A DNA stretch of 56,416 nt from a virus (lineage: Duplodnaviria > Caudoviricetes). The first letter of the stretch is position 1. The number at the start of each line of letters is the position of its first letter. The notes under the pieces are model-generated. The model searched no databases. It saw only the letters and a list, made by a program, of their open reading frames with translations, and was not told the origin of the DNA. A program made the position numbers and the translations under genes. Below are positions 3,156 through 52,348 of this stretch, in pieces. The stretch spans positions 1 through 56,416 of IMG/VR virus record IMGVR_UViG_3300021440_000005; one strand, 5' to 3'.

Positions 3156-5358
3156 GTTTTCTTAATGCCTGAACATTTTTTGCAGTTGGAAGGTAAGACT
3201 CAAGTGTTGGGTTTTTAACTAATTCCTTTAATCCTCCTGGTTTTAAAACAGTTTCTTCAGAAATCATTGTCTTGAGTATACTTTTAGCGAAGTTAATTAA
3301 CGTTTTCTTTGGCATTCCCCCCAACGCAATAATAGCTGGAGCAGAGGCCACATTATCAATGGTATTCAAAGTATCTGAAGTCGGAGCCGTAAAAGATGTA
3401 TTTGCAGTTCGATGAGCATTCTTGTTATGAAGTAATGCTTCTCGATAATCTTCTAGAGAACCTTTTGCATCCGGATTTGCTTTCTTCCAAAAATGCTCTA
3501 AAACTGGCATTGAAGTATTTTTATCCAAGTTGCCTACAGCATTAAAAAAACGTGAAGCATTGAACTTGTCTCCTGCGCTATGACCCATAGAATACATAAG
3601 TTCATTAATATATTCCTTGAAGTTTTCACCCCCTGCAAACTTATTTATAGCAGGCGTATCAGCTTTCTTGGCATCCTTCTCAACTATTCGTTTTTTAGGC
3701 TTACCAGTTTCAGGATCAATCTTCTGATCTAACAACTCATTTTCCAAGAACTTTACACGCTTAGTTGGGGAAGTTGGTGGTTCGGAAACTTTTTGATATT
3801 GATCCCAATTGTTACGTGAAGTTTCATTAAAAAACTTAGTATAGTCTTCGTTTGTTTTAACCCATTTAGCTAAGTCTTCCTGAAGATTTAACCTTTCCAT
3901 GTTTGTTTTAAAATCTGAATTAACAGCATCGCGAATTAACCCTAATTGATTTTTATTAAGAACTTTTGTTGAAGAATCAGGATGGTTTTTCTTTTGTAAA
4001 ACTTTATATTTTTCATCCCAAGTATTAAAATCAATAGGTTTTGATAAATCATTTTTTAATTTCAGGAATGAAGAATCATCAACACCTCTAGCAATTTCCT
4101 GAAATGCTTTATGAGTATTCTTCATATTAAAAGCTTTGGGATCTGTAACACCTTCCGCTCCTTTTTTTGCATCGTATCCAAACATTTCTAGAAGTTGAGA
4201 TTTATCGTTTGGGTATTTTGCTGATAACTCCGTAAATTGTTTAAAATTATTTGGATTGGTTTGTTCCAGGTTTTTTAGAAACCCTTCTGCATTATCGATT
4301 GTACCTAAATCAGTTTTAAGCTTTTCACGTATTGGATTCCTAACTTTTTGTTGCTCACTGTGAAAAGCATCTCGAAAGTCTTTTATTTCATTAAGCATTT
4401 TATCTGTGGCTGATTCAATATTTGGATTTCCTCTAGTTCTTCCAGCTATTGATTCACCAATATTTTCAAGGAATTTATCTGCATTAAGTCTTGCAGCAGT
4501 ACCTTCATTTGTTTGTCCCAAAGCAGTTATGAGTTGTTTTAGTCTTGCTGCTCCTACCGATTCATCTTTGAGAACTGACCCAAGATCAGGGTTTAAATCA
4601 AGCTTTTCGAAGAGCTTAACCTTTTCTGGATCCACATGTTTATTGATATATTTTTTTGTTCCACCATTAATGCTTCTTTGTGCGGCGCTTGTTGCCAAAG
4701 GAGTTAAAGAAGTAGCTAACCGTCCTAACATTGATTCTTGGTCAAAGTTTTCTGAAGCTAATTTAGAGCCTATATGTGCAGGCAAATACTTTAACAATGT
4801 TTCACGTAATAATTTAGTATCTTTAGTAGGAATTTTGCTCATCTCTGCGACAAAATCAAATAAGCCCTTACCGTATTTATTGGTAATTTTACTGCTTAAA
4901 AGATTCTGAACTTTTTCTACTGGAAGGTTGTATTTGTTAATTATTCCCGCGATTTTAGGGGATTTTGAAGCAGCCTTTCCAGCAGCCAGAGGAGCAACAA
5001 ATGAAGCGAATTCATTAGTAAAATTTTTGAGATTTTTTTCCTCTTCCGAAAGATTTTTATCTGCATATTCTTCATTGGTCAACCAATCTATACCCTTTTC
5101 AGCCATATCTTCAAAAGGTCGAGCTGATTTACCTTTACCATAAGCGGTATATCCATAAATATTTCCTAACATATCTACAAGGGATAAAACGCTATCCAAA
5201 ATACTTGCTGCGCCCAAAGCACCGCCTTTTAAGGCTGCAGGTAATCTTTTATCTGGTTTTCCTATTCTACTAGTGTCGTAGTCATATTCTCCTGCAGATT
5301 GCTGAATATCCTTCCCTAAATTTGCAGCTAATTTAGCCAAATACCCGTAATAGCTCAT
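3064..5358 (-). CDS. Putative DNA ejection / internal virion protein
   Basis: 764 aa, helical and K/A-rich; in a run of large ORFs after the tail genes; contains the spacer-6 match at 3553-3583. Confidence 0.5.
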   Translation of the reverse strand: MSYYGYLAKLAANLGKDIQQSAGEYDYDTSRIGKPDKRLPAALKGGALGAASILDSVLSLVDMLGNIYGYTAYGKGKSARPFEDMAEKGIDWLTNEEYADKNLSEEEKNLKNFTNEFASFVAPLAAGKAASKSPKIAGIINKYNLPVEKVQNLLSSKITNKYGKGLFDFVAEMSKIPTKDTKLLRETLLKYLPAHIGSKLASENFDQESMLGRLATSLTPLATSAAQRSINGGTKKYINKHVDPEKVKLFEKLDLNPDLGSVLKDESVGAARLKQLITALGQTNEGTAARLNADKFLENIGESIAGRTRGNPNIESATDKMLNEIKDFRDAFHSEQQKVRNPIREKLKTDLGTIDNAEGFLKNLEQTNPNNFKQFTELSAKYPNDKSQLLEMFGYDAKKGAEGVTDPKAFNMKNTHKAFQEIARGVDDSSFLKLKNDLSKPIDFNTWDEKYKVLQKKNHPDSSTKVLNKNQLGLIRDAVNSDFKTNMERLNLQEDLAKWVKTNEDYTKFFNETSRNNWDQYQKVSEPPTSPTKRVKFLENELLDQKIDPETGKPKKRIVEKDAKKADTPAINKFAGGENFKEYINELMYSMGHSAGDKFNASRFFNAVGNLDKNTSMPVLEHFWKKANPDAKGSLEDYREALLHNKNAHRTANTSFTAPTSDTLNTIDNVASAPAIIALGGMPKKTLINFAKSILKTMISEETVLKPGGLKELVKNPTLESYLPTAKNVQALRKLVKNETSEKENENEPQKTTIDPNDPFSFWN

Positions 5359-12572: not shown

Positions 12573-13469
12573 TTATATTTTATAGATATTTGGACTTTCG
12601 TAGTTTTGCTTCTTTGCATTCAAAAATCTTTTGCGAATAAACTCTTTGTGTTTGTCGTTCAACGCATGGTTCATGAAACCTTCGAAAGTTTTTTGCTCTT
12701 CAGCAGACATGGTTAAGTTTTTTTGCTTGTGCCGCGATTGATAATTGTTTACTGGAGCCGAAAAACTATTTCTTCTTGTGTTATGTTCCATGGGCGAATC
12801 GCCTCCTTCTATTTCGGAATTGATCATATTTTCTAAATCTTCAAAATAAGCAGGAGAGAATTCTTCGTCACCGCGTCCCTGTCGTTTGTACTGCATCGAT
12901 AATTTTGAAGATAATTTCTGAGCTAAATTGTAGGCTCCTTGCGAAAAGTTAGGGTTTGTTTGATCGAAATGATTAATGAAAGGGTTTCGCTCTAAAAATT
13001 CTCTATAGTTTGCATCTGCTTCCGAATTAACATATTGAGCAGTTTGTTGCTCAGATACATAACGGTTCAACTCTTCTTTTTCCTTTTGGATTTGATACTT
13101 TTTCAACTTCAATTCCATCAGAGCATCTTCTGCCTCTGTTTTTGCCTTCAGGTCATTTTCAGCCTCAGCAGTCATCTTTGCAAATTTGATATTTGTATTT
13201 ACGAGCTCCAGCGTTGATTCATCTTTTTCCAGGGAAGCTTTTTTTAGCTCATTCAATAAACGTTTTTGCTCGTTCAATTCGTTGAGAAGTTGTATTTTCT
13301 CCTGTTCGAGTCGTGCCGATTTAGAAGGTCGACTTTTCCTAGATTCGTTTTTTTCTTGAGAATCTTCTTCTGCACTTTCAAACAAATTGTGTTTTGCATT
13401 ATCCTGTATTCCATCTCCGGACAATGTTTCGTTTAACGAGGTGTAGAAATCTATGTGTTCTTTTTCCAT
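12573..13469 (-). CDS. Capsid scaffolding-like protein
   Basis: Acidic N-terminus, coiled coil, FLERNPF motif, C-terminal LTMSAEEQK helix. Confidence 0.6.
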   Translation of the reverse strand: MEKEHIDFYTSLNETLSGDGIQDNAKHNLFESAEEDSQEKNESRKSRPSKSARLEQEKIQLLNELNEQKRLLNELKKASLEKDESTLELVNTNIKFAKMTAEAENDLKAKTEAEDALMELKLKKYQIQKEKEELNRYVSEQQTAQYVNSEADANYREFLERNPFINHFDQTNPNFSQGAYNLAQKLSSKLSMQYKRQGRGDEEFSPAYFEDLENMINSEIEGGDSPMEHNTRRNSFSAPVNNYQSRHKQKNLTMSAEEQKTFEGFMNHALNDKHKEFIRKRFLNAKKQNYESPNIYKI

Positions 13470-14809: not shown

Positions 14810-16984
14810 ATGTATCAAAAAAATGATCCCAGTTTAGAAAATCAAAATTTAGTCGATGTTTTGGACAAAGATTATGTGAATGAACTTGGTAGACAGTTAA
14901 AACGTAGGACTGATGACGAATATTCAGCACGTTCAAACTTCATGGAAATTATTCATTCTTCATTGTCGGCATTAGGCTTAACCCAATATCAAAAGGGGAG
15001 AGGCACTGACTCAGGACTTGAATCAGACATTGTCGACTCGACATTTCTGCAGACATGGATTCAAATTAAAAATGAATTTGCTGCAGAGTTACTTGCTCCG
15101 TTTAAGATTGCAAAAACCGACATAGCTCATCGCAATTTACTTAACGCATCGCCCAATGGGAATGAGATGATTTCTCAGTTGGACGTTTATGCTCAAATAG
15201 TTGAAGAAGATATTAACAATAAACTCAATTGCGAATGGTCAGATTGGTTATTTGAAATTAAAAAGGCAATAGGAGCAGCATTTTTAACTGGTTCATCTAT
15301 TAGTAAAGTCTACATGGATCCAGTAATAAACAGACCAGTTTTAAAGATGATTAGTCCTGAAAATATTTTAATTGGTGAACACGAAAGCTCGATAGAAAAA
15401 GCTCGCTGGATCGGTCACATTTATACTCTTACGGAAGAAGAGTTAGATATCTATCAAGCGAAAGGTGTTTTTGCGGCAGTAGATATTCCTCCCGATAATT
15501 CCTACAACGAGCAAAACACTATATCCATTTCTGAACTAGAAAATAGAATTTCAGGTATCGATAGTGCGGCAAAAGATAACGATACAATTAAAAATTATAC
15601 TTTTGTCGAGGTACAGTTTTGGGAATGTGCAGCCAACAACGACGACCCTGCTATATTCACTGGTTCTGAAGAAACGGATTTCACATATTATCCTTACACA
15701 GCACATATCCATAAAGAAACTGGGACTGTTATGGCGATAGATCATGCATGGGATTTAGTTGATGGAGAAATTGTTAAACGTCAAACAATGTTTAAGATGA
15801 CATTTCTTGAGGCTAATGATTTTTGGGGTATCGGTCTAGCCCAGACATGTATTGGACTCCACAAAACCGCAACAAATATCCTTAGAAATCTTACCGATTC
15901 GTTAGCAATTGCGAACTCTCAAACTCTTGTTATGTCGCAGAATTTAGCTCCTCAACAGTCAACTATAACCTTGAGGAATGGTGAAGTGAACTCAATTGCT
16001 TCGCCGAGTGCAGATATAAACGACGCTTTGATGAGGTTGCCTTTTGAACAACCTAGCCCAATGTATATGGATTTTTGGGGACAGTTAAAAGAATCGATAT
16101 CAAAGATGGCTGGGCTTTCATCGGTAACTTTGCAGAACCTTCCACCTAACATGCAGGGGAATTTCCTTTTAGCTTTAATGGATAAAGAAAGCAAACCAAT
16201 GTCTGTTGTTTTGCAAAATTTCCAGTTTGCTTTCAACCAAATGTTTAAATTATTGCACAAGTTGTTAAGAACTGAATGGGCAAATAAACCAATTGCTCCA
16301 AGAGTTTCACCTTTAACTTACGGTGAGGTTTATCACGAATCTATAAATATTATTTCTGCTCTTGATCCGTCAATGTCGAGTTCGGCTGCACAATTAGTCA
16401 GGATGCAAACATTGCTGGATTGTGCTCTTCAATCTCCGCAACTACATGATCTTTCGGCTGTTTATGAGCGTTTGTATAAAATTATGAAGATTGATAACTA
16501 TAAGCAATTATTGCTTCCGCCAGAGGTTCTTCAACAACAACAAGAGCAGGCAATGCAAGCGCAACAGCAAGAACTTGCTGCGCAACAGCAACAACAACAG
16601 GAACAAAACCAAATTCTTATGGCTGACATTGAGAATAAGAAGATGGCAAATGAACAGGAAATAAACCTAAAATTTGAAAAACTTATGTCTGATAATGAAT
16701 TGAACCGGTTGAAAATAATACTTGAGAAAGAAAAGAGCCTGAACAATTTTAGACTCCAGCTTTTAAAAGAAAAAGGTGCAGTCGTTAAACAGAAGAATGT
16801 TGAAATTGCTCAATTGGATAAAGCTAAGAGAGAATATCTAGTAGATAGTGCTGAAATGAAGGCAGCACATGGAATAAGTTTACCAAATATTCCTGAACCT
16901 AAATTAGAGAATTACGATATCGAAGACATGCCTTTGCATGTTGATGATAATAATACTGTTTCAGGCGAACCCAAATTGGGGTAA
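14810..16984 (+). CDS. Portal protein
   Basis: 724 aa; GSSISKVY.DP and DFWGIGLA motifs; C-terminal Q-rich barrel helix typical of P22-like portals. Confidence 0.8.
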   Translation: MYQKNDPSLENQNLVDVLDKDYVNELGRQLKRRTDDEYSARSNFMEIIHSSLSALGLTQYQKGRGTDSGLESDIVDSTFLQTWIQIKNEFAAELLAPFKIAKTDIAHRNLLNASPNGNEMISQLDVYAQIVEEDINNKLNCEWSDWLFEIKKAIGAAFLTGSSISKVYMDPVINRPVLKMISPENILIGEHESSIEKARWIGHIYTLTEEELDIYQAKGVFAAVDIPPDNSYNEQNTISISELENRISGIDSAAKDNDTIKNYTFVEVQFWECAANNDDPAIFTGSEETDFTYYPYTAHIHKETGTVMAIDHAWDLVDGEIVKRQTMFKMTFLEANDFWGIGLAQTCIGLHKTATNILRNLTDSLAIANSQTLVMSQNLAPQQSTITLRNGEVNSIASPSADINDALMRLPFEQPSPMYMDFWGQLKESISKMAGLSSVTLQNLPPNMQGNFLLALMDKESKPMSVVLQNFQFAFNQMFKLLHKLLRTEWANKPIAPRVSPLTYGEVYHESINIISALDPSMSSSAAQLVRMQTLLDCALQSPQLHDLSAVYERLYKIMKIDNYKQLLLPPEVLQQQQEQAMQAQQQELAAQQQQQQEQNQILMADIENKKMANEQEINLKFEKLMSDNELNRLKIILEKEKSLNNFRLQLLKEKGAVVKQKNVEIAQLDKAKREYLVDSAEMKAAHGISLPNIPEPKLENYDIEDMPLHVDDNNTVSGEPKLG

Positions 16985-32180: not shown

Positions 32181-35100
32181 ATGAACAGTTTAGGTTTAAA
32201 AATATCATCTAATTTCGTTGCATATTCTCTAATACAAAAGGGGGAAGAGAATAAATTTCTTAGCACTGGTATACACATGTTTAAGGCTAATGAAGATCCA
32301 AAGCTTGGAGGTTCGCTTCAAATAGCCCGTTCTGGATTCAGAAGACGCCGTGCTTGGTTGAAGCGACGAATAAAGCGGTCGATTAATATTAGAAATATAT
32401 TCAAAACTTTAGGAGTTTCTACTTCTCCTAGTTCTGAAGAACTTAGAAAAGTTTGGGATTTGAGAGCAAAGGGATTGGACGAGAAACTTTCCATCCGTGA
32501 ACTTCAGATAATCATAGTTTACATGTCAAAAAAACGTGGGTATAAGTCCAACCGCCTTTCTAACTCACCAGCTAATGAAAATGGGAAGATCCTCGAAGCT
32601 ATTGCACGAACTAAAAACGAGATTAAAGAAGCTGGGGCTCGTACTTTTGGTGAGTTCCTGAAAGACAAACGTCAGAAGCGTAATCGTAAAGGCGAGTATT
32701 TGTTTTTCGCTGACAGAGAGATGATTGAAAATGAATTTGATTTGATTCTTGCTAAACAGCTTGAGTTAGGTTTAGAGGGCATAACTGAAGATCTTGTTGA
32801 GAAGATTCGTGAAGTATTGTTCTATCAAATTCCCATGAAGACTTTAGGTCACTTTGGTAAGAAATGTTACATTTACCCAGAAGAGAATGTACTTCACCGC
32901 GATACTTTTACTGCCAATATTTTTAATCTTTTGCGCAAAATTAATGACCTCAACATTTATCGATACAAACCTGAGTACGAAACCTACACACTTAACACTC
33001 GTCAGATCGGTGAGATTGTCCTCAAGGTATTTGATAAAAAAACTTTAACATATAAAGCTCTTAGAAAGATGTTAGGTCTTTCCATAGACTGGATAATTAA
33101 TATTGAAGAAGAAACTTTAGATAAATCTTTCTTTAATTTCACTTCTTTTCATGACTTATATCCCATATTCTCGAAAGTGGCATCATTTCCTTATGTTTTG
33201 GATAAGGACTCTCCTGAAGATATTTTAGATAACCCGAAAGCGATCAAATTCTATGACGAATTAATTAACTGTTTAGCCATTAACTTTGAACGAGATGAGT
33301 TACTGCATGAAGTTATTAAAGTCTTTGAAGACAATGGAGTTTCTGAATTTTTGGATCTTTATGACAAGGAAGAGGATGACGAGAAGTTTGATATTTATGA
33401 CATAGTTTCTTTAGAGAACTTCACTACTATGCATTCTCTTTCAAAGAAGGCCATGGAATTCTTTATAGAGCATTTCCAATATGGAAAAAGCTATGCAAGT
33501 ATTTTCAATGAACATTTCGCTAAAAACTCTGGTCTTGAAAAGTTGGTTAAGCTTCCACGTTTTGAAGAAACTAACAACTCTGTCATTAACCGAACTTGTG
33601 CCGAAGTACGTAAAGTTATTAACGCACTTAAGCGTGAGCATGAGATTGATGAAATTTATTTCTATTCAGTTCCTGATTTTGGATTAAACATGTCTGACAG
33701 ACGCCGATTAGCTTTCCTTGAGCGCGAACATAAGAAGGTCCGTACTTCACTGGTTGAGCTTTTGAAAGAGATTTGCATTAACGATCTTTCTGAAGAAACC
33801 ATTCAAAAGGCTGTGCTTTGGAAAGAGCAAGGTGAGCGTTGTATCTACACTGGTAAGTTTATAGCCCCAGATTTGCTAAATACTGATCAAGTTTCTATTA
33901 TTAATATTTTGCCTTATGGTGCTACTTTTGATAATAGCTCTGACAACAAGGCTCTCATTTATACTAATCATGACATTAAACGGAAGTCTAAATCCTTAGC
34001 TTTGTTAGCTAAAACAGACGAAAGGATCAATGCAGCTACATTCTTCTCTGATATTCAGAACATGTATAACGACAAGGTTTTGAGACATAAGAAGTATGAA
34101 CGATTGATGACCCTTGAGTTTGATGAAGCTGAGTTAAAACTAAAGAATCGTATGGATAACAGAGTAGTTAACCGAAGAATTATTAACCACTTCTCTTCAT
34201 ATCTTGTCCCACGCGAAAATGTCTTTTCAATTCGCAACAGTGTTGTTGATAACCTGAAAGAATATTTGTCTCTTAATCAATTAGAGTTTAAAGATTCTCG
34301 AGATAAAGTTGATTCAAAATACGAACATATCTTGGACGCAATGATTGTGAACTTCGCATCCAAAGACCTTCTTGAGAAGTCAGCTGCATATTTTGATTCA
34401 GTTGATAAGACGCAGGATTTCACTTATTCCGTGAGTTTTGTCGAGGAGTTAGAAAATGCAAAGATAAACCGTATGATTTCATGTGACGCTTCAGGTTCTT
34501 TGCATGGTAGCACGATTTACAAGCTCCCTAAGAAACTTCGTCACAAATACAAAGAAAATGAAACATTCATGTTATCAGTCAATGAATATTTGGATGAAGA
34601 GAACAGAATAATCAAACGTGTTCCACTTGAAACTATTGATAAAAAGAGCTTGAAAAATTTAGTGTGTAAGCTAGATCCAGGCAAACATTTATATTCAGAA
34701 ATCGTGAAACGTTTAGATAATGAGCCAGATCCAGAGAAGGCTTTTGTTGCCCCTATCTTCTTGAATGATAAGTTTAATCATCCAAAAAGAGTTAAAGAAG
34801 TTGAGATTTTCGTTGAAACACGTTCTGGAATTTTTAAACATCAGGGGGTTGCTGCTAACGGTGACTTCATACGTTTAGACTTGTTTAAGGACACGGATGG
34901 TAATATTTTGAGTTGTCCAATATATGCAATGGACGTTATTCGAGGTAAGCTACCTAATTTCCATATTACTGAAGATGGCTATGAACCGCTGAACTATACT
35001 CATAAGTTTTTGGCATCAATTAACAAAAACCAGAAGGTACTGTTTACGAAGACTAAGAAAGATTCGAAGATGGAAATCACTGGTTTTTTCCTGAACTACA

Positions 35101-35300
35101 ACCGTTCAAACAACGGCGTTCTGCTTACAGACATTATTGTTAAGACTTATAATCATCAGGGTGTATTGCAGGAAAAAGTAAGCATTCTTGAAAATGTCTT
35201 CTACTTGAAATCAGTTGATAATGTGCAGGTATTCCACTACGATATTCTAGAGTCTAAACACCTCATCGACTTTAAGGGTAACCAACCTCAATTCAAATAA
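32181..35300 (+). CDS. cas9: Type II-C Cas9 homologue with substituted RuvC and HNH catalytic residues (natural dCas9)
   Basis: 1039 aa. Intact Arg-rich bridge helix, WDLRAKGLDEKLS..KKRGYKSNR, N.VINR...VRKVINAL, LWKEQGERCIYTG and NG..IRLDLF....PIY motifs. RuvC-I is GLKIS (canonical GLDIG); RuvC-II is IYFYSVP (IHIELAR); HNH is SIINILP (EIDHILP); RuvC-III is YEHILDA (HHAxDA). Confidence 0.92.
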   Translation: MNSLGLKISSNFVAYSLIQKGEENKFLSTGIHMFKANEDPKLGGSLQIARSGFRRRRAWLKRRIKRSINIRNIFKTLGVSTSPSSEELRKVWDLRAKGLDEKLSIRELQIIIVYMSKKRGYKSNRLSNSPANENGKILEAIARTKNEIKEAGARTFGEFLKDKRQKRNRKGEYLFFADREMIENEFDLILAKQLELGLEGITEDLVEKIREVLFYQIPMKTLGHFGKKCYIYPEENVLHRDTFTANIFNLLRKINDLNIYRYKPEYETYTLNTRQIGEIVLKVFDKKTLTYKALRKMLGLSIDWIINIEEETLDKSFFNFTSFHDLYPIFSKVASFPYVLDKDSPEDILDNPKAIKFYDELINCLAINFERDELLHEVIKVFEDNGVSEFLDLYDKEEDDEKFDIYDIVSLENFTTMHSLSKKAMEFFIEHFQYGKSYASIFNEHFAKNSGLEKLVKLPRFEETNNSVINRTCAEVRKVINALKREHEIDEIYFYSVPDFGLNMSDRRRLAFLEREHKKVRTSLVELLKEICINDLSEETIQKAVLWKEQGERCIYTGKFIAPDLLNTDQVSIINILPYGATFDNSSDNKALIYTNHDIKRKSKSLALLAKTDERINAATFFSDIQNMYNDKVLRHKKYERLMTLEFDEAELKLKNRMDNRVVNRRIINHFSSYLVPRENVFSIRNSVVDNLKEYLSLNQLEFKDSRDKVDSKYEHILDAMIVNFASKDLLEKSAAYFDSVDKTQDFTYSVSFVEELENAKINRMISCDASGSLHGSTIYKLPKKLRHKYKENETFMLSVNEYLDEENRIIKRVPLETIDKKSLKNLVCKLDPGKHLYSEIVKRLDNEPDPEKAFVAPIFLNDKFNHPKRVKEVEIFVETRSGIFKHQGVAANGDFIRLDLFKDTDGNILSCPIYAMDVIRGKLPNFHITEDGYEPLNYTHKFLASINKNQKVLFTKTKKDSKMEITGFFLNYNRSNNGVLLTDIIVKTYNHQGVLQEKVSILENVFYLKSVDNVQVFHYDILESKHLIDFKGNQPQFK

Positions 35301-36967: not shown

Positions 36968-37392
36968 GCAACAACGCCTTTCTTCTTCTGCTGCTGCTGC
37001 TTCTTGTTGTGCTTCTTGTTGTTAAGGTTCTTCTACTTGAAGTTCTTGTTGTTGAAGAAGTAAGGTTTAAAGCTTGGCGGCTAATATGTTGTAAAAAAAG
37101 ATCTTCCACCCTTAGTTTAACTACTGAGGGTTTTTTTATCTCTATATTTTGATTACAAGTATATAGCATCGATTTATTATTCTTATTTATAATATTTATA
37201 ATATTGATAAGAAAATTAACTTTTCTCATTTTTCCTGTTGACACAGGTTCGATAAATTCGTTATATTCAACTTGCATTAAGTTTTCCTCGATTCTAACCA
37301 GTCGGGGAATTTTCTTTTCCACGACCTAATTTCAAAAAAAAAGTTCAGAAATATTGTTATCAACCCAGTTTGATAAAGTCAAGGATATTAAT

Positions 37393-37989
37393 ATGCGTTA
37401 CGGATATATTTTGAGTACTAGGTTACCGAAGGATGCATTAGATCAAGAAAGAGTCTTGAAGGGGTGCGACTGTTACGAGATTTTAATTGAGTCTTTAGAG
37501 GACAATTTTTACTTACTTAGACGGTTCATTGCGAGTATGACACCAAAAGATGTTTTGATAGTATCACGAGCAAGTTCATTAGGTAACACTGCTAAGCAGA
37601 TTATCGAGCATATTACGTCACTTCTAGATAAAAATGGGCACATCATATCTATGGATGGGTTGTTAGATTCCCGCAAACCTGATTTTAAAAAGCAGCTGGA
37701 TGCTATGCTTGCTTTGGTAAACCAGATGCTGTATAGAAAGTTCGTCTATGCAAAAAAACCGAGACCTAAGAACTTAGAGCGTCTTCGTTACGCTTATAAG
37801 ACGTTAGAGCGACTTCCCATATTAATTAGAATGCTTAAAGAAGGTCAAACCTTCAATTTTATTTCATACAAGACTGGGTATGATATTAAAACCATGCAAA
37901 AACTCATCCATCATTTAAAAGAAGATGAAGATGGGTTAATGGAACTTTACAAAACTTTCTTAGCAAGGAAGAAGATGTTTAAAAGGTAA
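37393..37989 (+). CDS. Serine recombinase (resolvase)-like protein lacking the catalytic motif
   Basis: MRYGYILST in place of YARVS; DVLIVSRASSLG in place of DxLVVxKLDRL; C-terminal HTH. Confidence 0.65.
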   Translation: MRYGYILSTRLPKDALDQERVLKGCDCYEILIESLEDNFYLLRRFIASMTPKDVLIVSRASSLGNTAKQIIEHITSLLDKNGHIISMDGLLDSRKPDFKKQLDAMLALVNQMLYRKFVYAKKPRPKNLERLRYAYKTLERLPILIRMLKEGQTFNFISYKTGYDIKTMQKLIHHLKEDEDGLMELYKTFLARKKMFKR

Positions 37990-38087
37990 GAAATTCTGCA
38001 AAGTAGGATTTTCAAACTGACCCATTTTTTTACCCTCACTAGTATGATTTTCTCTTGACTGGTTTCAATTCTATGATATATTGGCGA

Positions 38088-38182
38088 AATAGTTGTTGTG
38101 TTACATCGTAAATATGTAAAAGCTAAGCCTTAGCTTAGCGAGACAGCCTGGGTGGGACTTATCCCACTTGGGTTGTTTTTTT
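38088..38182 (+). ncRNA. Small structured RNA 1 upstream of the CRISPR array
   Basis: TTGACT(38055), 16 nt, TGn-TATATT(38077) promoter; hairpins TTACAT/ATGTAA and GCTAAGC/GCTTAGC; long GC stem followed by a T-run. Confidence 0.55.
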
Positions 38183-38220
38183 CTATTGAATCCTTTTTTT
38201 CTAACAACTATACTATTTAT

Positions 38221-38293
38221 GAAACTTTTTTATTCATTCTGTTTCAATTTACGATCTCCTCAACCCCAGTTTTTCAAATTTCTGGGGTTTTTT
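38221..38293 (+). ncRNA. Small RNA 2 upstream of the CRISPR array
   Basis: TTGAAT(38186), 17 nt, TATACT(38209) promoter; AACCCCAG/CTGGGGTT hairpin plus T-run; contains repeat-like TACGATCT. Confidence 0.45.
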
Positions 38294-38325
38294 AATATCT
38301 TTGTTTAATTTTACGCTATAACGCA

Positions 38326-38757
38326 ATTATATGATCTAGAGATATCGGAAGGTAATATACCCGCCGAAGTTTATTACTGCAAACCCAACTGGTTATACAA
38401 TATAGAGATTTTAGTAGGTAATATACCTTCTAACATCCTTCATAAAGAGCTTTCACAGTTTTACGATATAGATATTTTAGTAGGTAATATACCGGGGGTC
38501 TTGGTGAAGTGAACTCAATTGCTTGTTATACGATCTAGAGATTTCAGAAGTTCAAATACCCCCTCATTAGTTATACGCGGGTCGATGAGTTATACGATCT
38601 AGAGAAAGTAGTAGGTAGTATACCCATAAAATGCGGATATATGTTACCACCTAGGTTATACAATCTAATGATTTTAGTAGGTAGTATACCTGAAGCCTTG
38701 AACTTGTCTCCGTCACTATGAGTTATACGATATAGAGATTTTGTTAAGGAGTATTCC
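38326..38757 (+). CRISPR. Degenerate type II CRISPR array: 7 x 36-bp repeats and 6 spacers of 28-31 nt
   Basis: Consensus GTTATACGATCTAGAGATTTTAGTAGGTAATATACC; repeats start at 38326, 38392, 38458, 38525, 38589, 38655 and 38722; each has 2-7 mismatches to consensus. Confidence 0.93.
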
Positions 38758-38794
38758 CTATAAATGGATCATTACTAGAGGAATTGATTATACA

Positions 38795-39391
38795 CTAAGC
38801 ATCTTGTCCAGATTTAAGTGGGTCTACGTTAATCTTAATCTCAGGGTCGTGAAGACGTTTAGGTACACCTAACGAATCCTTAATCTGAATACTCTTGTCA
38901 TGATATTCACTAGCAGCCTTCTTGGATTGATTAGATCCCCATATGCACACTCCCGATATCATGCCAAACACAACGCCTAGCATGTTAGCTAATCGTGCTT
39001 CCATGAAACCAGCTGCACCTATTGCTGACACTAACATAGATCCAAAAGTCGAAAGTGCTCCTAACACACTAGAACAAACATTAATTTTATGACAACAGCT
39101 GGCACTATCCGATAAACTCTTTTCTTCTTTTATCAGATCTTCAACTTGATTCTTCAAGTATGCGTGCCTGTCGAACAACGTCTTAGGGTCAACCGGATCA
39201 AACGAGTGCATCGACTTCGGACGGGGAGAAGAAGGAATTGTCTCGCTTGACCTTCTTGTTTCTTTACCTGGATGTTCGGGGACTAACTCTTGTGAGTCGA
39301 ATGGCTCAGCAGCTGCTAAAGAAGTAATGCATACCGATAAAATTAAAGGAGTAGTCTTCATTTGGGCCTGTATTATTATTATTCGAACCAA
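38795..39391 (-). CDS. Hypothetical exported/membrane protein (likely start 39361)
   Basis: Signal-peptide-like MKTTPLILSVCITSLAAA; two hydrophobic helices. Confidence 0.6.
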   Translation of the reverse strand: MVRIIIIQAQMKTTPLILSVCITSLAAAEPFDSQELVPEHPGKETRRSSETIPSSPRPKSMHSFDPVDPKTLFDRHAYLKNQVEDLIKEEKSLSDSASCCHKINVCSSVLGALSTFGSMLVSAIGAAGFMEARLANMLGVVFGMISGVCIWGSNQSKKAASEYHDKSIQIKDSLGVPKRLHDPEIKINVDPLKSGQDA

Positions 39392-39419
39392 TAATATTAT
39401 ACCACTAATTGAGATATTG

Positions 39420-39980
39420 TTTTCATATTTAATCCTCGTATCCTGCGTATAAAAATCGTCCCTATAGCTTCATACTAGCAGACAGAAATTTTTACCTACT
39501 GAATTATATAAATCGTAAGTTATAAACTTTATTTGAATATGCGAGTCTTACCTACTGAGTCATTGCCCCACAAGACTGCACCTTCTTAAATATTCATAGT
39601 ACTTACTAAACAATACAAAAGTTATACTTTTGTTTTACACCCCATAAGTTTTATCCCTATTCAACGATTAATCATACAAATAATGTTCATGTTGTTGTAC
39701 TGATTTATAGTCAACCCTGTAAGGTCATACAGTTCAAAAAGAATGCTCAAATTTTACAAAACAGGATTTATAGTCATACATGTAATTACTTGAGATTAAT
39801 TAAAACGACTTTTCCGTCTCTATATAGCAATAAATGTACTTTACTTGAGAATACTTTTATTAGCTATACATGTTAACTCTTTATATCCAGGTTTTAATGT
39901 TAGTATTATTGATACAATATTTAAAAGAGGTGTTTATACTCTTCATACGCTTGAAAATTAAATGAAACATTAATAGGAGA
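39420..39980 (+). repeat. Non-coding tract with dispersed, strand-polar GTYATAC mini-repeats (left)
   Basis: Exact copies at 39621, 39724 and 39773; one-mismatch copies at 39469, 39632, 39671, 39694, 39863, 39933 and 39942. Confidence 0.6.
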
Positions 39981-39986
39981 CTATAC

Positions 39987-41894
39987 ATGACTTCAAAAAA
40001 AGTAATTGGTATTGACTTAGGAACTACAAACTCGTGTGTTGCGATCATGGATGGCAGTCAGGCTAAGGTGATTGAGAACACAGAAGGACGTCGCACGACG
40101 CCATCGATTGTTGCCTTCACAGAAAGCGGCGAACGTTTAGTGGGTGATGGCGCAAAGCGTCAAGCGGTAACGAACCACGAAAATACATTCTTTGCGATTA
40201 AGCGTTTAATCGGACGTCGTTTCGAAGACGAAGCTGTGCGCAAGGATATCGATCTGGTTCCTTATAAAATTGTAAAGAGTGACAATGGTGATGCGTGGGT
40301 GAAATCTCGCGATAAGAATTACAGCCCCAGCGAAATCAGCGCATTCACATTGATCAAAATGAAAGAAACTGCTGAAAAGTTCTTGGGTGAGACGGTGTCT
40401 CAGGCTGTGATTACAGTGCCTGCGTACTTTAACGACGCTCAACGTCAAGCGACTCGGGATGCGGGTAAGATTGCAGGATTGGAAGTCTTGCGTATCGTGA
40501 ACGAGCCAACAGCTGCGGCATTAGCGTACGGCTTGGATAAAAAAGAATCTGGCGTTATCGTGGTATACGACTTGGGTGGTGGTACGTTTGACGTGTCTAT
40601 CCTTGAAGTCGGTGAAGGTGTGTTTGAAGTTAAATCCACAAATGGGGATACGTTCCTGGGTGGTGAAGACTTTGATGGGCGCATTGTTCAGTACTTAATT
40701 GATGAATTCAAAAAGGAAACAGGCGTAGATATTTCCAAGGATAAAATGGCTTTGCAACGCTTGAAAGAAGCTGCGGAAAAGGCAAAGATTGAACTGTCCA
40801 GCAGTATGCAAACTGAGGTTAACTTGCCCTTTATCACGGCTGATGCAACTGGTCCAAAGCACTTGAACATCAAGCTTTCCCGTGCGAAATATGAGACATT
40901 AGTGGATGATTTAATCCAACGCACCATGAAACCATGCGAGAAAGCTTTAAAAGATGCGGGCTTAAAAGCTTCAGATATCGACGAAGTTATCTTGGTTGGT
41001 GGTATGACACGTATGCCCAAGGTGATTGAAGAAGTTAAACGCTTCTTTAACAAAGAACCTCATCGTGGGGTGAACCCTGATGAAGTTGTGGCGATTGGTG
41101 CTGCGATTCAAGGCGGTGTGTTAACGGGTAATGTTAAAGACGTTGTGTTGTTGGATGTGACGCCATTGTCATTGGGTATCGAGACATTGGGCGGTGTGTT
41201 TACACGATTGATTGATCGCAACACAACAATTCCAACCAAGAAAAGCCAAACGTTCTCTACGGCTGAGGACAACCAAACAGCTGTGACAATTCGTGTGTTC
41301 CAAGGTGAGCGTGAAATGGCTGCGGATAACAAAATATTGGGTCAATTTGATTTGGTAGGATTGCCGGCGGCTCCACGCGGAATGCCACAAATCGAAGTTA
41401 CCTTTGATATCGATGCCAATGGTATCGTGCATGTGTCTGCAAAAGACAAGGCAACGAACAAAGAGCAGCAAATTCGCATTCAGCCCTCAGGTGGATTGAG
41501 TGATGCCGATATCGAAAAAATGGTGAAAGATGCCGAAGCCAATGCCGAAGCTGATAAAAAACGCCGTGAATTGATTGAGGCTCAAAACCAAGCGGATACG
41601 TTGTTGTATACGACTGAAAAGACGCTGAAAGAGCATGGCGATAAGATTTCTGCAGCGGACAAAGACGCCGTCGAAAAAGATCTGGCTGCGTTGAAAGAGG
41701 TTGCAAAGTCTGAGGATCTGGAGACAATCAAAGCTAAAACAGACGCGTTGATGCAGTCATCGATGAAACTGGGCGAGGCAATGTATAAGGCGGCTCAAGA
41801 GGCTCAGCCATCAGCTGAATCAGGAGAAACTTCAAAAGACGATACCGTGGTTGATGCAGAGTTTAAAGAAGTCGACGAAGACGACAAAAAATAA
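39987..41894 (+). CDS. dnaK: Chaperone DnaK (Hsp70), alphaproteobacterial type
   Basis: [24 protein letters not shown] and DLGGGTFD motifs; VVDAEF C-terminus. Confidence 0.99.
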
Positions 41895-41994
41895 GACTTA
41901 AAGTGATAAAGCTCCGTGTTCAAAAGTGGAAACTGATTGAATGCGGGGCAATTTTTAATTATGAACATATTTGAGTTTCTGTTGAGGAAGAAGA

Positions 41995-43131
41995 ATGACA
42001 TCAAAAAAAGATTATTACGAATTGATGGGAGTTGCTAAAAACATTTCACCAGAAGGGTTGAAAAAAGCGTATCGTAAGCTGGCAATGAAATACCACCCCG
42101 ATCGGAATCAGGGCGATAAAGACGCCGAAGCAAAATTTAAAGAAATTAGCGAAGCATATGAGGTATTGAGCGACGAACAAAAACGAGCAGCTTATGATCA
42201 ATATGGTCATGGTGCCTTTGATGGTAGCATGGGTGGCGACGCAAGCGGCTTCTCTAACTTTTCAAATATTTTTGAAGAGGTTTTTGGGCGAGGGTTCGGA
42301 GGAACAGGTGGGCAACGGGCTCATTCTCAAGGACAGCCGGGATCTGATTTACGATATGATGTGACCATTACCTTAGAACAAGCTCACCAAGGAATGTCTG
42401 AAAACGTATCCCTACGTAAGAGCGAAAAGTGTAGCGAATGTAATGGTTCAGGGGCTTCTAAAGGTACTAATTCTTCAACCTGTGACCAGTGTTATGGCGC
42501 GGGAACAATGCGATTCCAACAAGGTTTTTTTACTCTGGAACGTATGTGTACAAAGTGCGGTGGAGCAGGTCAAACGATAAAAGATCCCTGTAAACCCTGC
42601 GGTGGGTCTGGACGAATTCAGAAACAAAAAACAATCTCAATCACAATTCCCGTGGGTGTCGAAGATGGTACGCGTTTACGTGTTGCCGGCGAAGGTGATG
42701 CCGGAATGCGCGGTGGACAAGCGGGGGATTTATACATCTTTATTTCTGTAAAACCTCATGAATTGTTTATTCGACATGGCGACGATATTCATTGTCAGGT
42801 GCCTATTCCCATGACTACTGCCGTGCTGGGGGGTGAGGTTGAAATTCCAACAATTGATGGAACAAAAGCAAAAGTGACTATTCCTGCGGGATCACAACCA
42901 GGTGAGAAGTTAAGGCTAAAATCAAAAGGAATCAACGTAATGCGTACCACCCGACGGGGGGATATGATAGTTCATGCAATGGTCGAAATTCCCGTGAATT
43001 TAAATGCTGAACAGCAAAAACTGATGAAAGACTTTAAGGATTCAGACAAAGGTAAACCTAACGATCATCACCCAAAAACAAAAAGCTTTTTCGATAAAGT
43101 CAAAGGGTTTTGGGATAATATGAAGAAATGA
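41995..43131 (+). CDS. dnaJ: Chaperone DnaJ
   Basis: J-domain HPD, G/F-rich region, four CxxCxGxG zinc motifs. Confidence 0.99.
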
Positions 43132-50614: not shown

Positions 50615-52348
50615 TTATCTTACAGCTTGACTCGCTAATTTCAAAGCAATTTCGCGCTGAATTTCTTCATATTCGTTATCTTCGGATATCAGAACATTAG
50701 TATTCATCATCAATCCTACAATTTCGATAGCGTTTGTAATCGTTTCAATTGCTACATTGACTGGGTCGAGAACTCCGTTCTCAAATAAATTTACTTGATT
50801 ATCTTCCACGCTCTTAGTTGGATCAAGCATTTTCAAGTTATAACCCTTCCAAGTTTTCAAATCTTCAGAATTATTTTCTGGTAAACGAAGATTTTCATTG
50901 TAGTTTATGGTAATCGATTTGTACAAATCGTGCACAGTTTTTACAAATGCATTGCTAATTATGGACTTTAAAGAAGGATATTCTTCTTTTAGCTGGTTAG
51001 CTAAATAACTGAAAACGGTACATCCACCTGGAACTACGCCATGTTTTCTTGCAGATTGAACCGCACAAATTGCATCTTCAACTCGATCTTTTGTTTCTTT
51101 CGTGGACTGGGATGTTTTACCTCCAACAGAAATAATTGCTACGCCATCCGCAAGTCTCGCCAATCGTGAGCCTTGATACGCAGCTTCAGAATCTTCAGTA
51201 GTTTTGTCCATCAAGTCGCGAATTTTAGTAGATTGTTCTTTGATAATGTCAGCTCGATCTGGACTTGGCAAAATAACTGTCTTGTCCATTTTACATATAA
51301 TTCGCTTAGCTGAACCCATATGCTTGACCCTAGCTGCGTTTCTCCCTGAAAGTGGTCCTAACTCTAATGCGTTCTTATTAGAAATAACTTTGCCACCAAA
51401 CACTATTTCGAGGTCGGTGTAAATATCATTAATTTGATATTCGTCCAAACCATGAAACATTTTGTTTAAAGAAATGCAGCAGCAACGGAAGAAATTCCCG
51501 TTTTCTTTGATGTTTGTAACCAAACCTGCTTCTGCGATAAAGGAAATATCTTTTGCAATAAGAACGAATGGTCTTCCAATAATCTTTGGATCTTCAGAAG
51601 AGAAGAAGTCAGCGAAAATATGTTTAATTTGCTCCCAGGAGCGAATCTCAATATCAGTCAAAACTATAGCTGGATCGTCGAGCGAGCATTCGATTTTACC
51701 TGCTTGGTTTGAATAATATTGAGATGTCATTCCCACAGGGAGGTATACTCCCTCACTAGAAAATACGGTAGTCTCTTTGTTTTTTGATTCCTCCATAACA
51801 AAGTTTCCATCTTTCCCAAGTTTCGATAATCCTTCTGCGATAATTTTTACTATCTCCTCATCTCCATTTGAAGAGGTGTAGGCTACCTTCTTTAGGATTT
51901 CTTTATCTTCTTCGACGTCTATTTTAATCTCTTCAAGCTTATCAACCAGACGTTTCCCAATATTCTTCATTTCTGCCACTTCTTGTGTAGAGAATGGGAT
52001 AGATTCGCCGGAATTCATACCCTCGAAAGTTCTTGAATCCAGAGCGGAGTTTAAAAGATGACGAGCAAATATAATAGCCGTTGTTGTTCCGTCCCCAACT
52101 CGATCAACTGTTTTTAACGAAACTTCTTTAAGAGAATTTAAACCCATGTTCATAAAAGTGTCCCGAACATTAGTTTCACGCGCAACCGAAACACCGTCTT
52201 TAGTTGATTTAGGCAAACCCATACGTGTTTCAATCATTACGTTCGCTCCGCAAGGGCCGAACGTTGATGAAACAGTTTTGTAAAGCGTTTCCACGCCTGC
52301 TCGTAATGCTTCACGAGCTTCTGAACCGTATAAATATTTTTTAGCCAT
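50615..52348 (-). CDS. groEL: Divergent phage GroEL-like chaperonin
   Basis: TFGP.G.NV, TKDGVSVA, GDGTTTA, ETKDRVEDA..A, GVVPGG and GVLDP motifs; no GGM tail. Confidence 0.93.
   Translation of the reverse strand: MAKKYLYGSEAREALRAGVETLYKTVSSTFGPCGANVMIETRMGLPKSTKDGVSVARETNVRDTFMNMGLNSLKEVSLKTVDRVGDGTTTAIIFARHLLNSALDSRTFEGMNSGESIPFSTQEVAEMKNIGKRLVDKLEEIKIDVEEDKEILKKVAYTSSNGDEEIVKIIAEGLSKLGKDGNFVMEESKNKETTVFSSEGVYLPVGMTSQYYSNQAGKIECSLDDPAIVLTDIEIRSWEQIKHIFADFFSSEDPKIIGRPFVLIAKDISFIAEAGLVTNIKENGNFFRCCCISLNKMFHGLDEYQINDIYTDLEIVFGGKVISNKNALELGPLSGRNAARVKHMGSAKRIICKMDKTVILPSPDRADIIKEQSTKIRDLMDKTTEDSEAAYQGSRLARLADGVAIISVGGKTSQSTKETKDRVEDAICAVQSARKHGVVPGGCTVFSYLANQLKEEYPSLKSIISNAFVKTVHDLYKSITINYNENLRLPENNSEDLKTWKGYNLKMLDPTKSVEDNQVNLFENGVLDPVNVAIETITNAIEIVGLMMNTNVLISEDNEYEEIQREIALKLASQAVR

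What the first reader, a model, noticed from the sequence alone, without database searches (positions are those of the whole stretch)
38494..38524. Spacer 3 matches the phage's own portal gene over its 3' 23 nt
Seen: TGGTGAAGTGAACTCAATTGCTT in spacer 3 is identical to 15979-16001. The 5' 8 nt largely differ and the 3' flank is CGCCGAGT. Established: Cas9 crRNAs keep the 3' 20-24 nt of the spacer, so this is a full-length match including the seed. Inference: with a valid PAM an active Cas9 would cut here, but a dead Cas9 could bind to regulate late genes, exclude relatives or mask the site. The guide would pair with the template strand, which is the weaker CRISPRi orientation.
Basis: partly seen in the sequence, partly recalled or inferred. 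Interest (0 to 1): 0.85.

Follow-up and report, generated by a model that had tools for sequence, protein, structure and literature searches.

The report
Phage dead-Cas9 spacer matching own portal
A freshwater phage carries a Cas9 that has lost its cutting residues plus a fast-changing CRISPR array, and one spacer really does copy 23 bases of the phage's own portal gene, as part of a wider habit of these arrays to hold pieces of the phage species' own genome.

Summary
Spacer 3 (38494-38524) is identical over its last 23 nt to 15979-16001 in the portal gene, and only 2 of its first 8 nt match. Shuffled spacers never exceeded 16 nt (200 shuffles).

Context:
- The window is a complete 56.4-kb phage genome.
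- It encodes a full-length type II-C-like Cas9 whose RuvC-I, RuvC-II and HNH catalytic residues are replaced.
- It has no cas1 or cas2, and I found no convincing tracrRNA.
- Its array has seven 36-nt repeats, all different.

Contigs of three other metagenome runs carry the same locus with about 97-98% identical flanks but different spacers. Two of 8 of those spacers match this genome (30/30 and 29/30). A 31-nt variant of spacer 3 also exists. Spacer 6 matches the genome at 27/31.

So kin- or self-derived spacers are a trait of this phage population, tolerated because the Cas9 cannot cut. Targets lie mid-gene on either strand, and spacer content differs between near-identical strains. The related phage shows 0 of 17 self-matches. 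This argues against dedicated regulation of late genes. It favours binding-type interference with close relatives, or an anti-CRISPR (masking or decoy) role.

Reading direction (plus strand is moderately favoured), PAM and binding remain unshown. Phage-borne RuvC-dead II-C Cas9 is published (Altae-Tran 2023). The array, the dead HNH and the kin-matching spacers are new.

The parts
38494..38524 (+). Spacer 3 (31 nt). The last 23 nt (38502-38524) are identical to the portal gene. The first 8 nt (GGGGGTCT) match at only 2 of 8.
15971..16001 (+). Place in the portal gene that corresponds to spacer 3. 15979-16001 is identical to it; 15971-15978 differs. The 3' flank 16002-16009 is CGCCGAGT. The site begins at codon 388 of the portal.
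14810..16984 (+). Portal protein gene (724 aa).
   Evidence: Pfam SU10_portal; PHROG 1216 portal; distant tblastn hits to podovirus portal and head-tail connector genes
38326..38757 (+). CRISPR-like array: 7 repeats of 36 nt, no two alike (24-33 of 36 positions shared pairwise), and 6 spacers of 28-31 nt.
32181..35300 (+). Cas9 homologue (1039 aa), type II-C-like and full length, with catalytic residues of RuvC motifs I and II and of HNH replaced. The RuvC-III H and D and the arginine-rich helix are kept.
   Evidence: NCBIfam TIGR01865 295.8 bits over residues 3-993; Pfam HNH_4; alignment to NmeCas9 chains; motif table; invariant arginines
38691..38721 (+). Spacer 6, which matches the phage's own genome at 27/31.
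3553..3583 (+). Place matched by spacer 6, inside ORF 3064-5358 (-), a 764-aa protein with no family. Mismatches are at spacer positions 7, 22, 23 and 25.
13081..13110 (-). Place matched 30/30 by a spacer found only in a sibling strain's array (run X6). It lies inside ORF 12573-13469 (-).
51342..51371 (+). Place matched 29/30 by a spacer found in sibling strains (runs X3, X4). It lies inside the Cpn60-like chaperonin gene 50615-52348 (-).
38055..38190 (+). Promoter-like site, a strongly folded small RNA and a terminator directly upstream of the array. It is a possible guide-partner or mimic RNA. Its pairing to the repeats is no better than that of random genome windows.

Best explanation
Spacer 3 is a genuine copy of portal-gene DNA from this phage lineage. 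It sits in a phage-borne CRISPR array that serves a Cas9 unable to cut.

In this phage population the arrays turn over quickly and repeatedly hold pieces of the species' own genome. The self-match is therefore a by-product of spacers taken from close relatives or from the phage itself. It is tolerated because the effector only binds.

If the array is read on the + strand (inferred), the guide's PAM-proximal 23 nt pair perfectly with the template strand of the portal gene. dCas9 could then sit there, given a suitable PAM.

The most likely use of such guides is non-destructive interference with co-infecting close relatives, by blocking their replication, transcription or packaging. Fine control of the phage's own portal expression is less likely.

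Shown: the match, the loss of catalytic residues, the lack of cas1/cas2, the spacer turnover and the kin matches.
Inferred: the reading strand, the binding and the purpose.
For: 1. The match is far beyond chance.
2. The Cas9 is full length (TIGR01865 295.8 bits), but D16, the RuvC-II E and the HNH D-H of NmeCas9 align to K, Y and I-N. The two closest homologues (42% and 37% identity, on 57.5-kb and 60-kb contigs) also lack the RuvC-I D and RuvC-II E. The loss is therefore old, and the long ORF has been kept.
3. No Cas1, Cas2 or SNF2 profile hit in this genome or in the related complete phage G001.
4. Contigs of runs X3, X4 and X6 match the flanks at about 97-98% but carry other spacers between like repeats.
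5. Two of the 8 such spacers I tested match this genome: 30/30 at 13081-13110 and 29/30 at 51342-51371.
6. X4 carries a 31-nt variant of spacer 3 that differs at 4 places. Spacer 6 matches at 27/31.
7. The window's own two matching spacers are imperfect (25/31 and 27/31), while the sibling spacers hit it at 30/30 and 29/30. This is expected if guides are aimed at other strains.
8. Plus-strand reading is supported by three points. The repeats begin GTT-. In G001 the first 9 nt of 23 full repeats are 99% conserved against 68-78% elsewhere, and 31 copies of that 9-mer all lie on one strand. The four 3' flanks all fit N4-[G/T]-A, while the 5' flanks share nothing.
Against: - No RNA data: none of the 22 runs listed is RNA.
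- No tracrRNA with a credible anti-repeat. The best duplexes of the repeat handle with the candidate RNAs rank 531 of 2088, 731 of 2218 and 1040 of 2013 genome windows.
- The PAM-like motif rests on 4 sites and is also met by the repeat's own first bases, so it cannot separate target from array.
- In the related phage G001, none of the 17 spacers I picked matches its own genome, the window or G002 at 70% or more beyond chance level.
- I found no relative carrying the exact 31-nt protospacer.
- The first 8 nt of spacer 3 would encode G-G-L, where all three related portals have L-(R/K)-(N/Y). Their origin is unexplained.
- I could not see whether sibling strains match or mismatch their own spacers.
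- How a phage without cas1/cas2 renews spacers is unknown.
Confidence: 0.45

Rival explanations
1. Anti-CRISPR by mimicry. The dead Cas9, the many degenerate and truncated repeats and perhaps the upstream small RNA exist to derail the host's own type II-C system, by soaking up host crRNA or tracrRNA or by sitting on protospacers so the host's active Cas9 cannot cut them. Under this reading the phage-matching spacers were first acquired by the host against this phage. They then entered the phage array by recombination, or by host Cas1-Cas2 acting in trans.
For: - Altae-Tran et al. [quoted passage not shown] The review PMC11656645 repeats it (passages).
- There is no cas1/cas2.
- No anti-repeat to the phage's own repeats was found, as expected if host RNAs are the partners.
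- There are truncated repeat copies in both phages.
- Spacers match the phage species on either strand, as host immunity spacers would.
Against: - The published family has an active HNH, an SNF2 helicase neighbour and no arrays. Here the HNH His is lost, no SNF2 is present and an array is present.
- All repeats differ, which is odd for units recently copied from a host array.
- The host and its repeats are unknown, so the key pairing could not be tested.
- Supplementary figures of that paper were closed, so I could not check whether this Cas9 belongs to their family.
Confidence: 0.25
2. Self-regulation. dCas9 guided by spacer 3 binds the phage's own portal gene to tune late gene expression, as a natural CRISPRi.
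For: - The Cas9 is dead.
- The 23-nt match is perfect at the end that would hold the seed under plus-strand reading.
- All four mapped targets lie in virion-related or chaperonin genes.
- Natural binding-only RNA-guided repressors exist: TldR, dCas12f and Cas12m (search listing; review passages).
Against: - The site is 1161 nt inside a 2175-nt gene, not at a promoter. The only promoter-like hit there is at chance level.
- The guide would pair with the template strand.
- The four targets split 2 sense and 2 antisense.
- Spacer sets differ between strains with near-identical flanks, whereas regulators are normally fixed.
- 0 of 17 picked spacers self-match in the related phage.
Confidence: 0.12
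3. The array is read on the minus strand. This concerns direction only and can combine with any of the functions above. The eight largely mismatched bases then fall next to the PAM, in the seed. The phage's own portal is not bound, and only relatives carrying the full 31-nt allele are.
For: - Six of 8 mismatches cluster at one end, and a second spacer variant keeps that end. This is what self-avoidance in the seed would look like.
- A TAAAAT box lies at the same place on the minus strand of the repeats of both phages (read from the consensus).
- Shared spacers sit at the left end of the arrays. In most CRISPR types that end is the old, leader-distal end.
Against: - The conserved 9-nt end of the repeats would then be the discarded end.
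- The 5' flanks, which are the PAM side in this reading, share no motif in 4 sites.
- Spacer 6 would have only one mismatch in its PAM-proximal 20 nt, so self-avoidance would not hold for it.
- All three related portals encode L-(R/K)-(N/Y) where the spacer reads G-G-L, so a portal allele with the full 31 nt is doubtful.
Confidence: 0.2
4. Relic. The locus was captured from a host and is decaying. The match is a leftover of old host immunity and has no present use.
For: Catalytic residues are lost, repeats are degenerate, there are no adaptation genes and no tracrRNA was found.
Against: - A 1039-aa ORF with no stops is kept in three lineages at 37-42% identity, with the arginine-rich helix and many invariant positions.
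- Spacer content is actively changing between close strains.
- The 5' 9 nt of the repeats in G001 are nearly invariant.
Confidence: 0.08

Closest known systems
Phage-encoded type II-C Cas9 with inactivated RuvC ('Cas9c', biomimicry anti-CRISPR; Altae-Tran et al. 2023 Science, PMC10910872, passages read; review PMC11656645, passages read)
   Same: It is encoded by a phage, is type II-C-like, has RuvC catalytic motifs replaced and has no adaptation genes. Spacers that match the phage are part of that story too, although there they sit in the host array.
   Different: That family is described with an active HNH, an SNF2 helicase neighbour, no CRISPR array and a tracrRNA that pairs perfectly with host repeats. 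Here the HNH His is also lost (it is kept in the two relatives), no SNF2 is present, and an array with phage-matching spacers sits 3 kb from cas9. No clear tracrRNA was found. I could not test whether the proteins are the same family, because the supplements were closed.
Virus-borne CRISPR mini-arrays used in conflicts between related viruses (as summarised in PMC11656645, passages read)
   Same: A virus carries spacers that match closely related viruses, and there is no viral cas1/cas2.
   Different: Those arrays have 1-2 spacers, repeats identical to the host's, and rely on the host's active Cas proteins. Here the phage brings its own Cas9, which is dead, all repeats differ, and the array is longer (6 spacers here, over 20 units in G001).
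NmeCas9 and other type II-C Cas9 (best PDB matches 8ja0, 6kc8, 6jdq)
   Same: The domain order and length agree, the repeats are 36 nt and the spacers about 30 nt. The 23-nt matched part equals the guide length usual for II-C enzymes (that length is recalled, not tested).
   Different: Catalytic residues are replaced, there is no cas1/cas2, no anti-repeat was found, and the repeats are not uniform.
Natural binding-only RNA-guided proteins: Cas12m (V-M), type IV-A, TldR and dCas12f (PMC11656645 passages; search listing)
   Same: The effector is nuclease-dead and sits on a mobile element. The expected action is blocking rather than cutting, and the targets are rival elements.
   Different: The protein lineage differs (Cas9). 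Those systems have fixed or promoter-directed guides, or plasmid targets. Here the targets are mid-gene in the phage's own species.
Self-targeting spacers against resident prophages in bacteria (PMC7708048, search listing only)
   Same: A spacer matches DNA on the same replicon as the array.
   Different: There it is accidental autoimmunity of an active system in a cell. Here the replicon is the phage itself and the effector cannot cut.

Membership tests
Type II-C CRISPR-Cas9 system | Cas9 with the RuvC-HNH-RuvC split, REC lobe and PAM-interacting end | tested here: met
   TIGR01865 295.8 bits over residues 3-993 of 1039. phmmer to NmeCas9 chains gives E 1e-55, with two stretches covering 4-724 and 804-980.
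Type II-C CRISPR-Cas9 system | Catalytic residues of RuvC (D, E, H, D) and HNH (D-H, N) | tested here: not met
   RuvC-I D is K, RuvC-II E is Y and the HNH pair D-H is I-N. The RuvC-III H..D and the HNH N are kept.
Type II-C CRISPR-Cas9 system | Adaptation genes cas1 and cas2 | tested here: not met
   There are no hits to PF01867 or PF09827 at E<=1 in the complete genomes G000 and G001. In the control genomes the profiles rang in 9 and 10 of 14.
Type II-C CRISPR-Cas9 system | tracrRNA with an anti-repeat to the array's repeats | tested here: inconclusive
   There were no Rfam hits. The best genome-wide duplex to a whole repeat is another repeat copy at 43373-43408, not an anti-repeat with a folded tail. 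Candidate short anti-repeats are no better than random windows.
Type II-C CRISPR-Cas9 system | Array of uniform repeats with unique spacers | tested here: inconclusive
   The period is 64-67 nt with 36-nt repeats and 28-31-nt spacers, but all 7 repeats differ.
Type II-C CRISPR-Cas9 system | PAM next to protospacers that is absent from the repeat | tested here: inconclusive
   Four 3' flanks fit N4-[G/T]-A, but so does the start of the repeat.
Phage RuvC-dead II-C Cas9 (Altae-Tran 2023) | Phage-encoded, with RuvC motifs inactivated | tested here: met
   The genome is a complete phage genome with terminal repeats. RuvC-I and RuvC-II are replaced in all 3 clade members.
Phage RuvC-dead II-C Cas9 (Altae-Tran 2023) | Active HNH domain | tested here: not met
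   The window protein has I-N in place of D-H. The two relatives have T-H.
Phage RuvC-dead II-C Cas9 (Altae-Tran 2023) | SNF2 helicase neighbour and no CRISPR array | tested here: not met
   PF00176 is absent from G000, G001 and G002. Arrays are present in G000 and G001.
Phage RuvC-dead II-C Cas9 (Altae-Tran 2023) | Phage tracrRNA pairs with the host's repeats, and host spacers match the phage | not testable with these tools
   The host was not identified. DnaK look-alikes point only to Pseudomonadota.
Viral mini-arrays for inter-virus conflict | Spacers match closely related viruses | tested here: met
   Sibling-strain spacers hit this genome at 30/30 and 29/30. The window's own spacers 3 and 6 hit it at 25/31 and 27/31.
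Viral mini-arrays for inter-virus conflict | Repeats identical to those of the host system, and reliance on host Cas proteins | not testable with these tools
   The host is unknown. The phage has its own Cas9 homologue.
Natural CRISPRi-type regulator (fixed guide for a promoter of its own or a host gene) | The guide is conserved among strains and aimed at a promoter or 5' region | tested here: not met
   Spacer sets differ between strains. The targets are mid-gene on either strand. There were 0 of 17 self-matches in G001.

The most novel reading that the evidence does not exclude
A small lytic-type phage runs its own RNA-guided, non-cutting 'kin recognition' system. A fully nuclease-dead Cas9 is loaded from an array that keeps sampling the phage species' own genome, without phage cas1/cas2. 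The system binds the DNA of co-infecting close relatives, or shields its own protospacers from the host's Cas9. Spacer 3 would then be a working guide whose 23 PAM-proximal bases are all that is needed.
Probability: 0.3. Interest if true: 0.85.

Novelty: new variant of a known kind. Interest (0 to 1): 0.62.

Why it matters
Natural Cas9 proteins that bind but do not cut are barely documented. The one published phage case was described without arrays and was read as a sponge for host crRNAs.

Here a complete 56-kb phage genome shows a doubly inactivated Cas9 together with an array. The array's spacers change between near-identical strains and are repeatedly drawn from the phage species' own genes.

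If it is functional, three things follow:
- Cas9 was turned into a binding-only tool by phages.
- Spacer renewal can happen on a phage that has no adaptation genes.
- 'Self-targeting' can be a normal state for a CRISPR array.

Each of these is testable with small-RNA sequencing, binding assays and strain competition. It would also provide a natural dCas9 with its own guide rules.

Tried and rejected
**Sources of the exact spacer**
- GenBank phages searched with the whole array by blastn gave only chance-level hits.
- IMG/VR exact scans for the 23-mer, for a pattern covering both spacer variants and for the repeat's 3' half found nothing.

**More family members with DNA**
- IMG/VR scans with P0001, the alignment A2 and P0036 gave only the one related phage.
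- Two metagenome scans found none.
- The genome-collection scan gave two unrelated weak hits.
- The portal-based scan added G002, which has no Cas9.

**tracrRNA**
- Rfam at gathering and E-value thresholds gave nothing.
- The 39492-39517 'anti-repeat' and the small RNAs upstream of both arrays pair with the repeat handle no better than random windows.
- The upstream RNA of G001 does not fold better than shuffles (z -0.79).
- The motif shared by the two upstream regions has no second site in the window.
- A DNA alignment of the two upstream regions was uninformative.
- The strong duplex at 43365-43408 is a stray repeat copy with no folded tail.

**G001 short-spacer match.** A 17-nt match of a short spacer of G001 to its own cas9 gene (E 0.037) does not carry the N4-[G/T]-A flank. 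I treat it as possibly chance.

**Expression.** No RNA holder was listed among 22 runs.

**Earlier notes of this scan.** Look-ups by sequence and by words gave nothing on this family.

**Things I could not do**
- Read laying allows one call, so I could not lay the same runs on the portal site or the other targets.
- Supplementary files of papers were closed. Fig. S19 and the tables of PMC10910872 may show whether this Cas9 is in their family.

Full report
**The observation**

The array runs from 38326 to 38757. It has seven 36-nt repeats and six spacers of 28-31 nt. Spacer 3 is 38494-38524. Its last 23 nt are identical to 15979-16001 on the same strand. Of its first 8 nt only 2 agree with 15971-15978, giving 25/31 overall.

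In 200 shuffles of the six spacers, the longest exact match to the rest of the genome was 10-16 nt. The target lies in ORF 14810-16984 (+), a portal protein. It starts in frame at codon 388. A contig from a different run and study covers 38247-38634 without a single difference. The array as given is therefore real.

**What the window is**

The window is the whole record: 56,416 bp, with direct terminal repeats, rated complete. It looks like a podovirus. Its portal is distantly like those of Pelagibacter, Roseobacter and cyanobacterial phages. It also carries dnaK, dnaJ and a Cpn60-like gene. All 22 sequencing runs listed as holding part of the array region are on record as DNA, and most are labelled freshwater metagenomes. 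The nearest DnaK clusters are labelled Pseudomonadota, which is only a lead.

**The Cas9**

ORF 32181-35300 encodes 1039 aa that match the Cas9 equivalog model end to end (295.8 bits). NmeCas9 structures are its best PDB matches (E 1e-55). In that alignment:

| Motif | NmeCas9 | This protein |
|---|---|---|
| RuvC-I | LGLDIG | LGLKIS |
| RuvC-II | IHIETARE | IYFYSVPD |
| HNH | VEIDHALP | VSIINILP |
| RuvC-III | HHALDA | EHILDA (H and D kept) |

A search of 1.84 billion representatives found two close homologues: P0036 (42% identity) and P0002 (37%). Both lack the RuvC-I Asp (N) and the RuvC-II Glu (S, T), and both have T-H in HNH. They sit on contigs of 57.5 and 60 kb.

This is therefore a small clade of phage-sized elements that has kept a long Cas9 ORF for a long time after losing RuvC. 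The window's member has lost the HNH His as well. The arginine-rich helix is invariant across dead and active relatives. This fits retained guide-RNA binding, which is an inference.

Neither this genome nor the related complete phage G001 has Cas1, Cas2 or SNF2 profile hits.

**The related phage**

G001 (59,936 bp, complete) is syntenic with the window. Its portal is 58% identical and its Cas9 37%. Downstream of cas9 it has a 2.4-kb tract with at least 23 full 36-nt repeats, all different, and many truncated copies.

The first 9 nt of the repeat occur 31 times, always on one strand. They are 99% conserved among the 23 full repeats, against 68-78% for the rest of the repeat.

I picked 17 spacers of 25-34 nt from that tract. 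None matched G001 itself, the window or a third related phage beyond chance level; the best were 20-22 of 30. A third relative, G002 (56,272 bp), has no Cas9.

**Population data**

I laid contigs of four runs on 37300-39990.
- X2 is identical.
- X3, X4 and X6 match the flanks at about 97-98%. Inside the array they jump between repeats, with 24-57 other letters in between. They carry different spacers.
- The window's spacer 1 and one extra spacer to its left are shared by several of these strains. To the right of spacer 1 the arrays differ.

I searched 8 of these foreign spacers in the window with up to 3 mismatches. Two hit:
- 30/30 at 13081-13110 (- strand), inside ORF 12573-13469;
- 29/30 at 51342-51371 (+), inside the Cpn60-like gene.

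The other six found nothing.

X4 also carries, behind a different repeat, a 31-nt variant of spacer 3. It differs at 4 places, two in the first 8 nt and two in the 23-nt part. The window's spacer 6 matches 3553-3583 at 27/31.

Matching the phage species' own genome is therefore a recurring property of these arrays, not a peculiarity of spacer 3.

- The four mapped targets are mid-gene. Two have the sense of the mRNA and two are antisense. This is what random sampling of phage DNA gives, not what a transcription regulator would show.
- Spacer sets differ between near-identical strains, and G001 has no self-match.
- The window's own spacers match it imperfectly, while sibling spacers match it at 30/30 and 29/30. 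This fits guides aimed at other strains, but rests on four cases.
- The first 8 nt of spacer 3 are shared by both variants. They would encode G-G-L or W-G-L, where all three related portals have L-(R/K)-(N/Y). They are not simple drift of an unused end, and probably do not come from a normal portal allele. Their origin is unexplained.

**Direction, PAM and partner RNA**

Plus-strand reading is favoured by:
- the GTT- start of the repeats;
- the strong conservation of the repeat's first 9 nt in G001. In type II systems this is the part kept in the crRNA (established knowledge, not tested here);
- the four 3' flanks all fitting N4-[G/T]-A, while the 5' flanks share nothing.

That motif is also present at the start of the repeat, so I do not regard it as an established PAM.

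I found no tracrRNA:
- there were no Rfam hits;
- no long anti-repeat was found;

The upstream small RNA is nevertheless real-looking. It has a promoter-like site and a terminator, and it folds with z -5.9.

**Comparison with what is known**

Altae-Tran et al. 2023 (passages read) reported phage-encoded II-C Cas9 with inactive RuvC, active HNH, an SNF2 neighbour, no arrays and a tracrRNA matching host repeats. They proposed that it hijacks host crRNAs. A 2024 review repeats this. That review also summarises viral mini-arrays aimed at related viruses, and binding-only effectors such as Cas12m.

My four literature searches listed no paper whose title or abstract start describes a phage Cas9 with both nuclease domains inactivated together with an array of phage-matching spacers. 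I read only listings, apart from the two papers named.

Two recent preprints seen only in the listing may bear on the small RNA and the truncated repeats:
- a phage small RNA that mimics a chimeric guide to inhibit Cas9;
- phage CRISPR-like regulatory RNAs.

**Verdict**

The finding belongs to a new variant of a known kind.

My best reading (0.45) is that spacer 3 is a kin- or self-derived spacer in a binding-only phage CRISPR-Cas9 module aimed mainly at close relatives. An anti-CRISPR masking or decoy role (0.25) is a serious rival. Dedicated control of portal expression is unlikely (0.12). Whether the guide is made, which strand it comes from, and whether it binds all remain untested.

Noticed in passing
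window 38055-38190: There is a promoter-like site (10 of 12), then a strongly folded RNA of about 100 nt (z -5.9) ending in an 18-bp terminator, directly upstream of the array. Its 5' 11 nt recur upstream of the array of the related phage. A preprint on a phage small RNA that mimics a chimeric Cas9 guide (seen in the search listing only) may be relevant.
   Followed up: partly
window 39987-43131 and 50615-52348: This 56-kb phage carries full-length dnaK (HSP70, E 5e-278) and dnaJ, plus a Cpn60-family chaperonin gene.
   Followed up: partly
window 43373-43408 (also 39621, 43207, 43230): Stray repeat-like copies and GTTATAC motifs lie on the + strand on both sides of dnaK-dnaJ. There are 16 GTTATAC copies in the genome against 5.6 expected. 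Spacer 4 itself contains a repeat start at 38570.
   Followed up: partly
L001 17980-20400 (phage G001): This is a 2.4-kb tract with at least 23 full repeats, all different, and many truncated ones. Thirty-nt spacers are always preceded by a full repeat and followed by at least the 9-nt repeat start. Some 'spacers' are only 13-17 nt.
   Followed up: partly
L001 18078-18094 and 10315-10331: A 17-nt exact match links a 13-nt short spacer (plus 4 nt of repeat) with the phage's own cas9 gene. The match ends exactly at the spacer-repeat junction (E 0.037). It may be chance or self-regulation.
   Followed up: partly
proteins P0042 and P0038: More distant Cas9 relatives (27-29% identity) also show replaced catalytic residues. 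P0042 has RuvC-I N, RuvC-II K and HNH D-Y. P0038 has HNH N-H. Loss of cutting may have happened several times in this part of the II-C tree.
   Followed up: no
G002 (L014, L016-L018): A third related phage of 56,272 bp (portal 57% identical) has no Cas9 homologue, so the module is not universal in this phage group.
   Followed up: partly
window 44011-44592, 37354-37989: An intact serine resolvase (E 1.4e-42) is present. A weak resolvase-like ORF (E 0.003, below the cut-off) lies between the replication-type genes and the array.
   Followed up: no
window 15962-15990 (- strand): A promoter-like site (9 of 12) overlaps the spacer-3 target on the opposite strand. The count in this region is not above shuffles.
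   Followed up: yes
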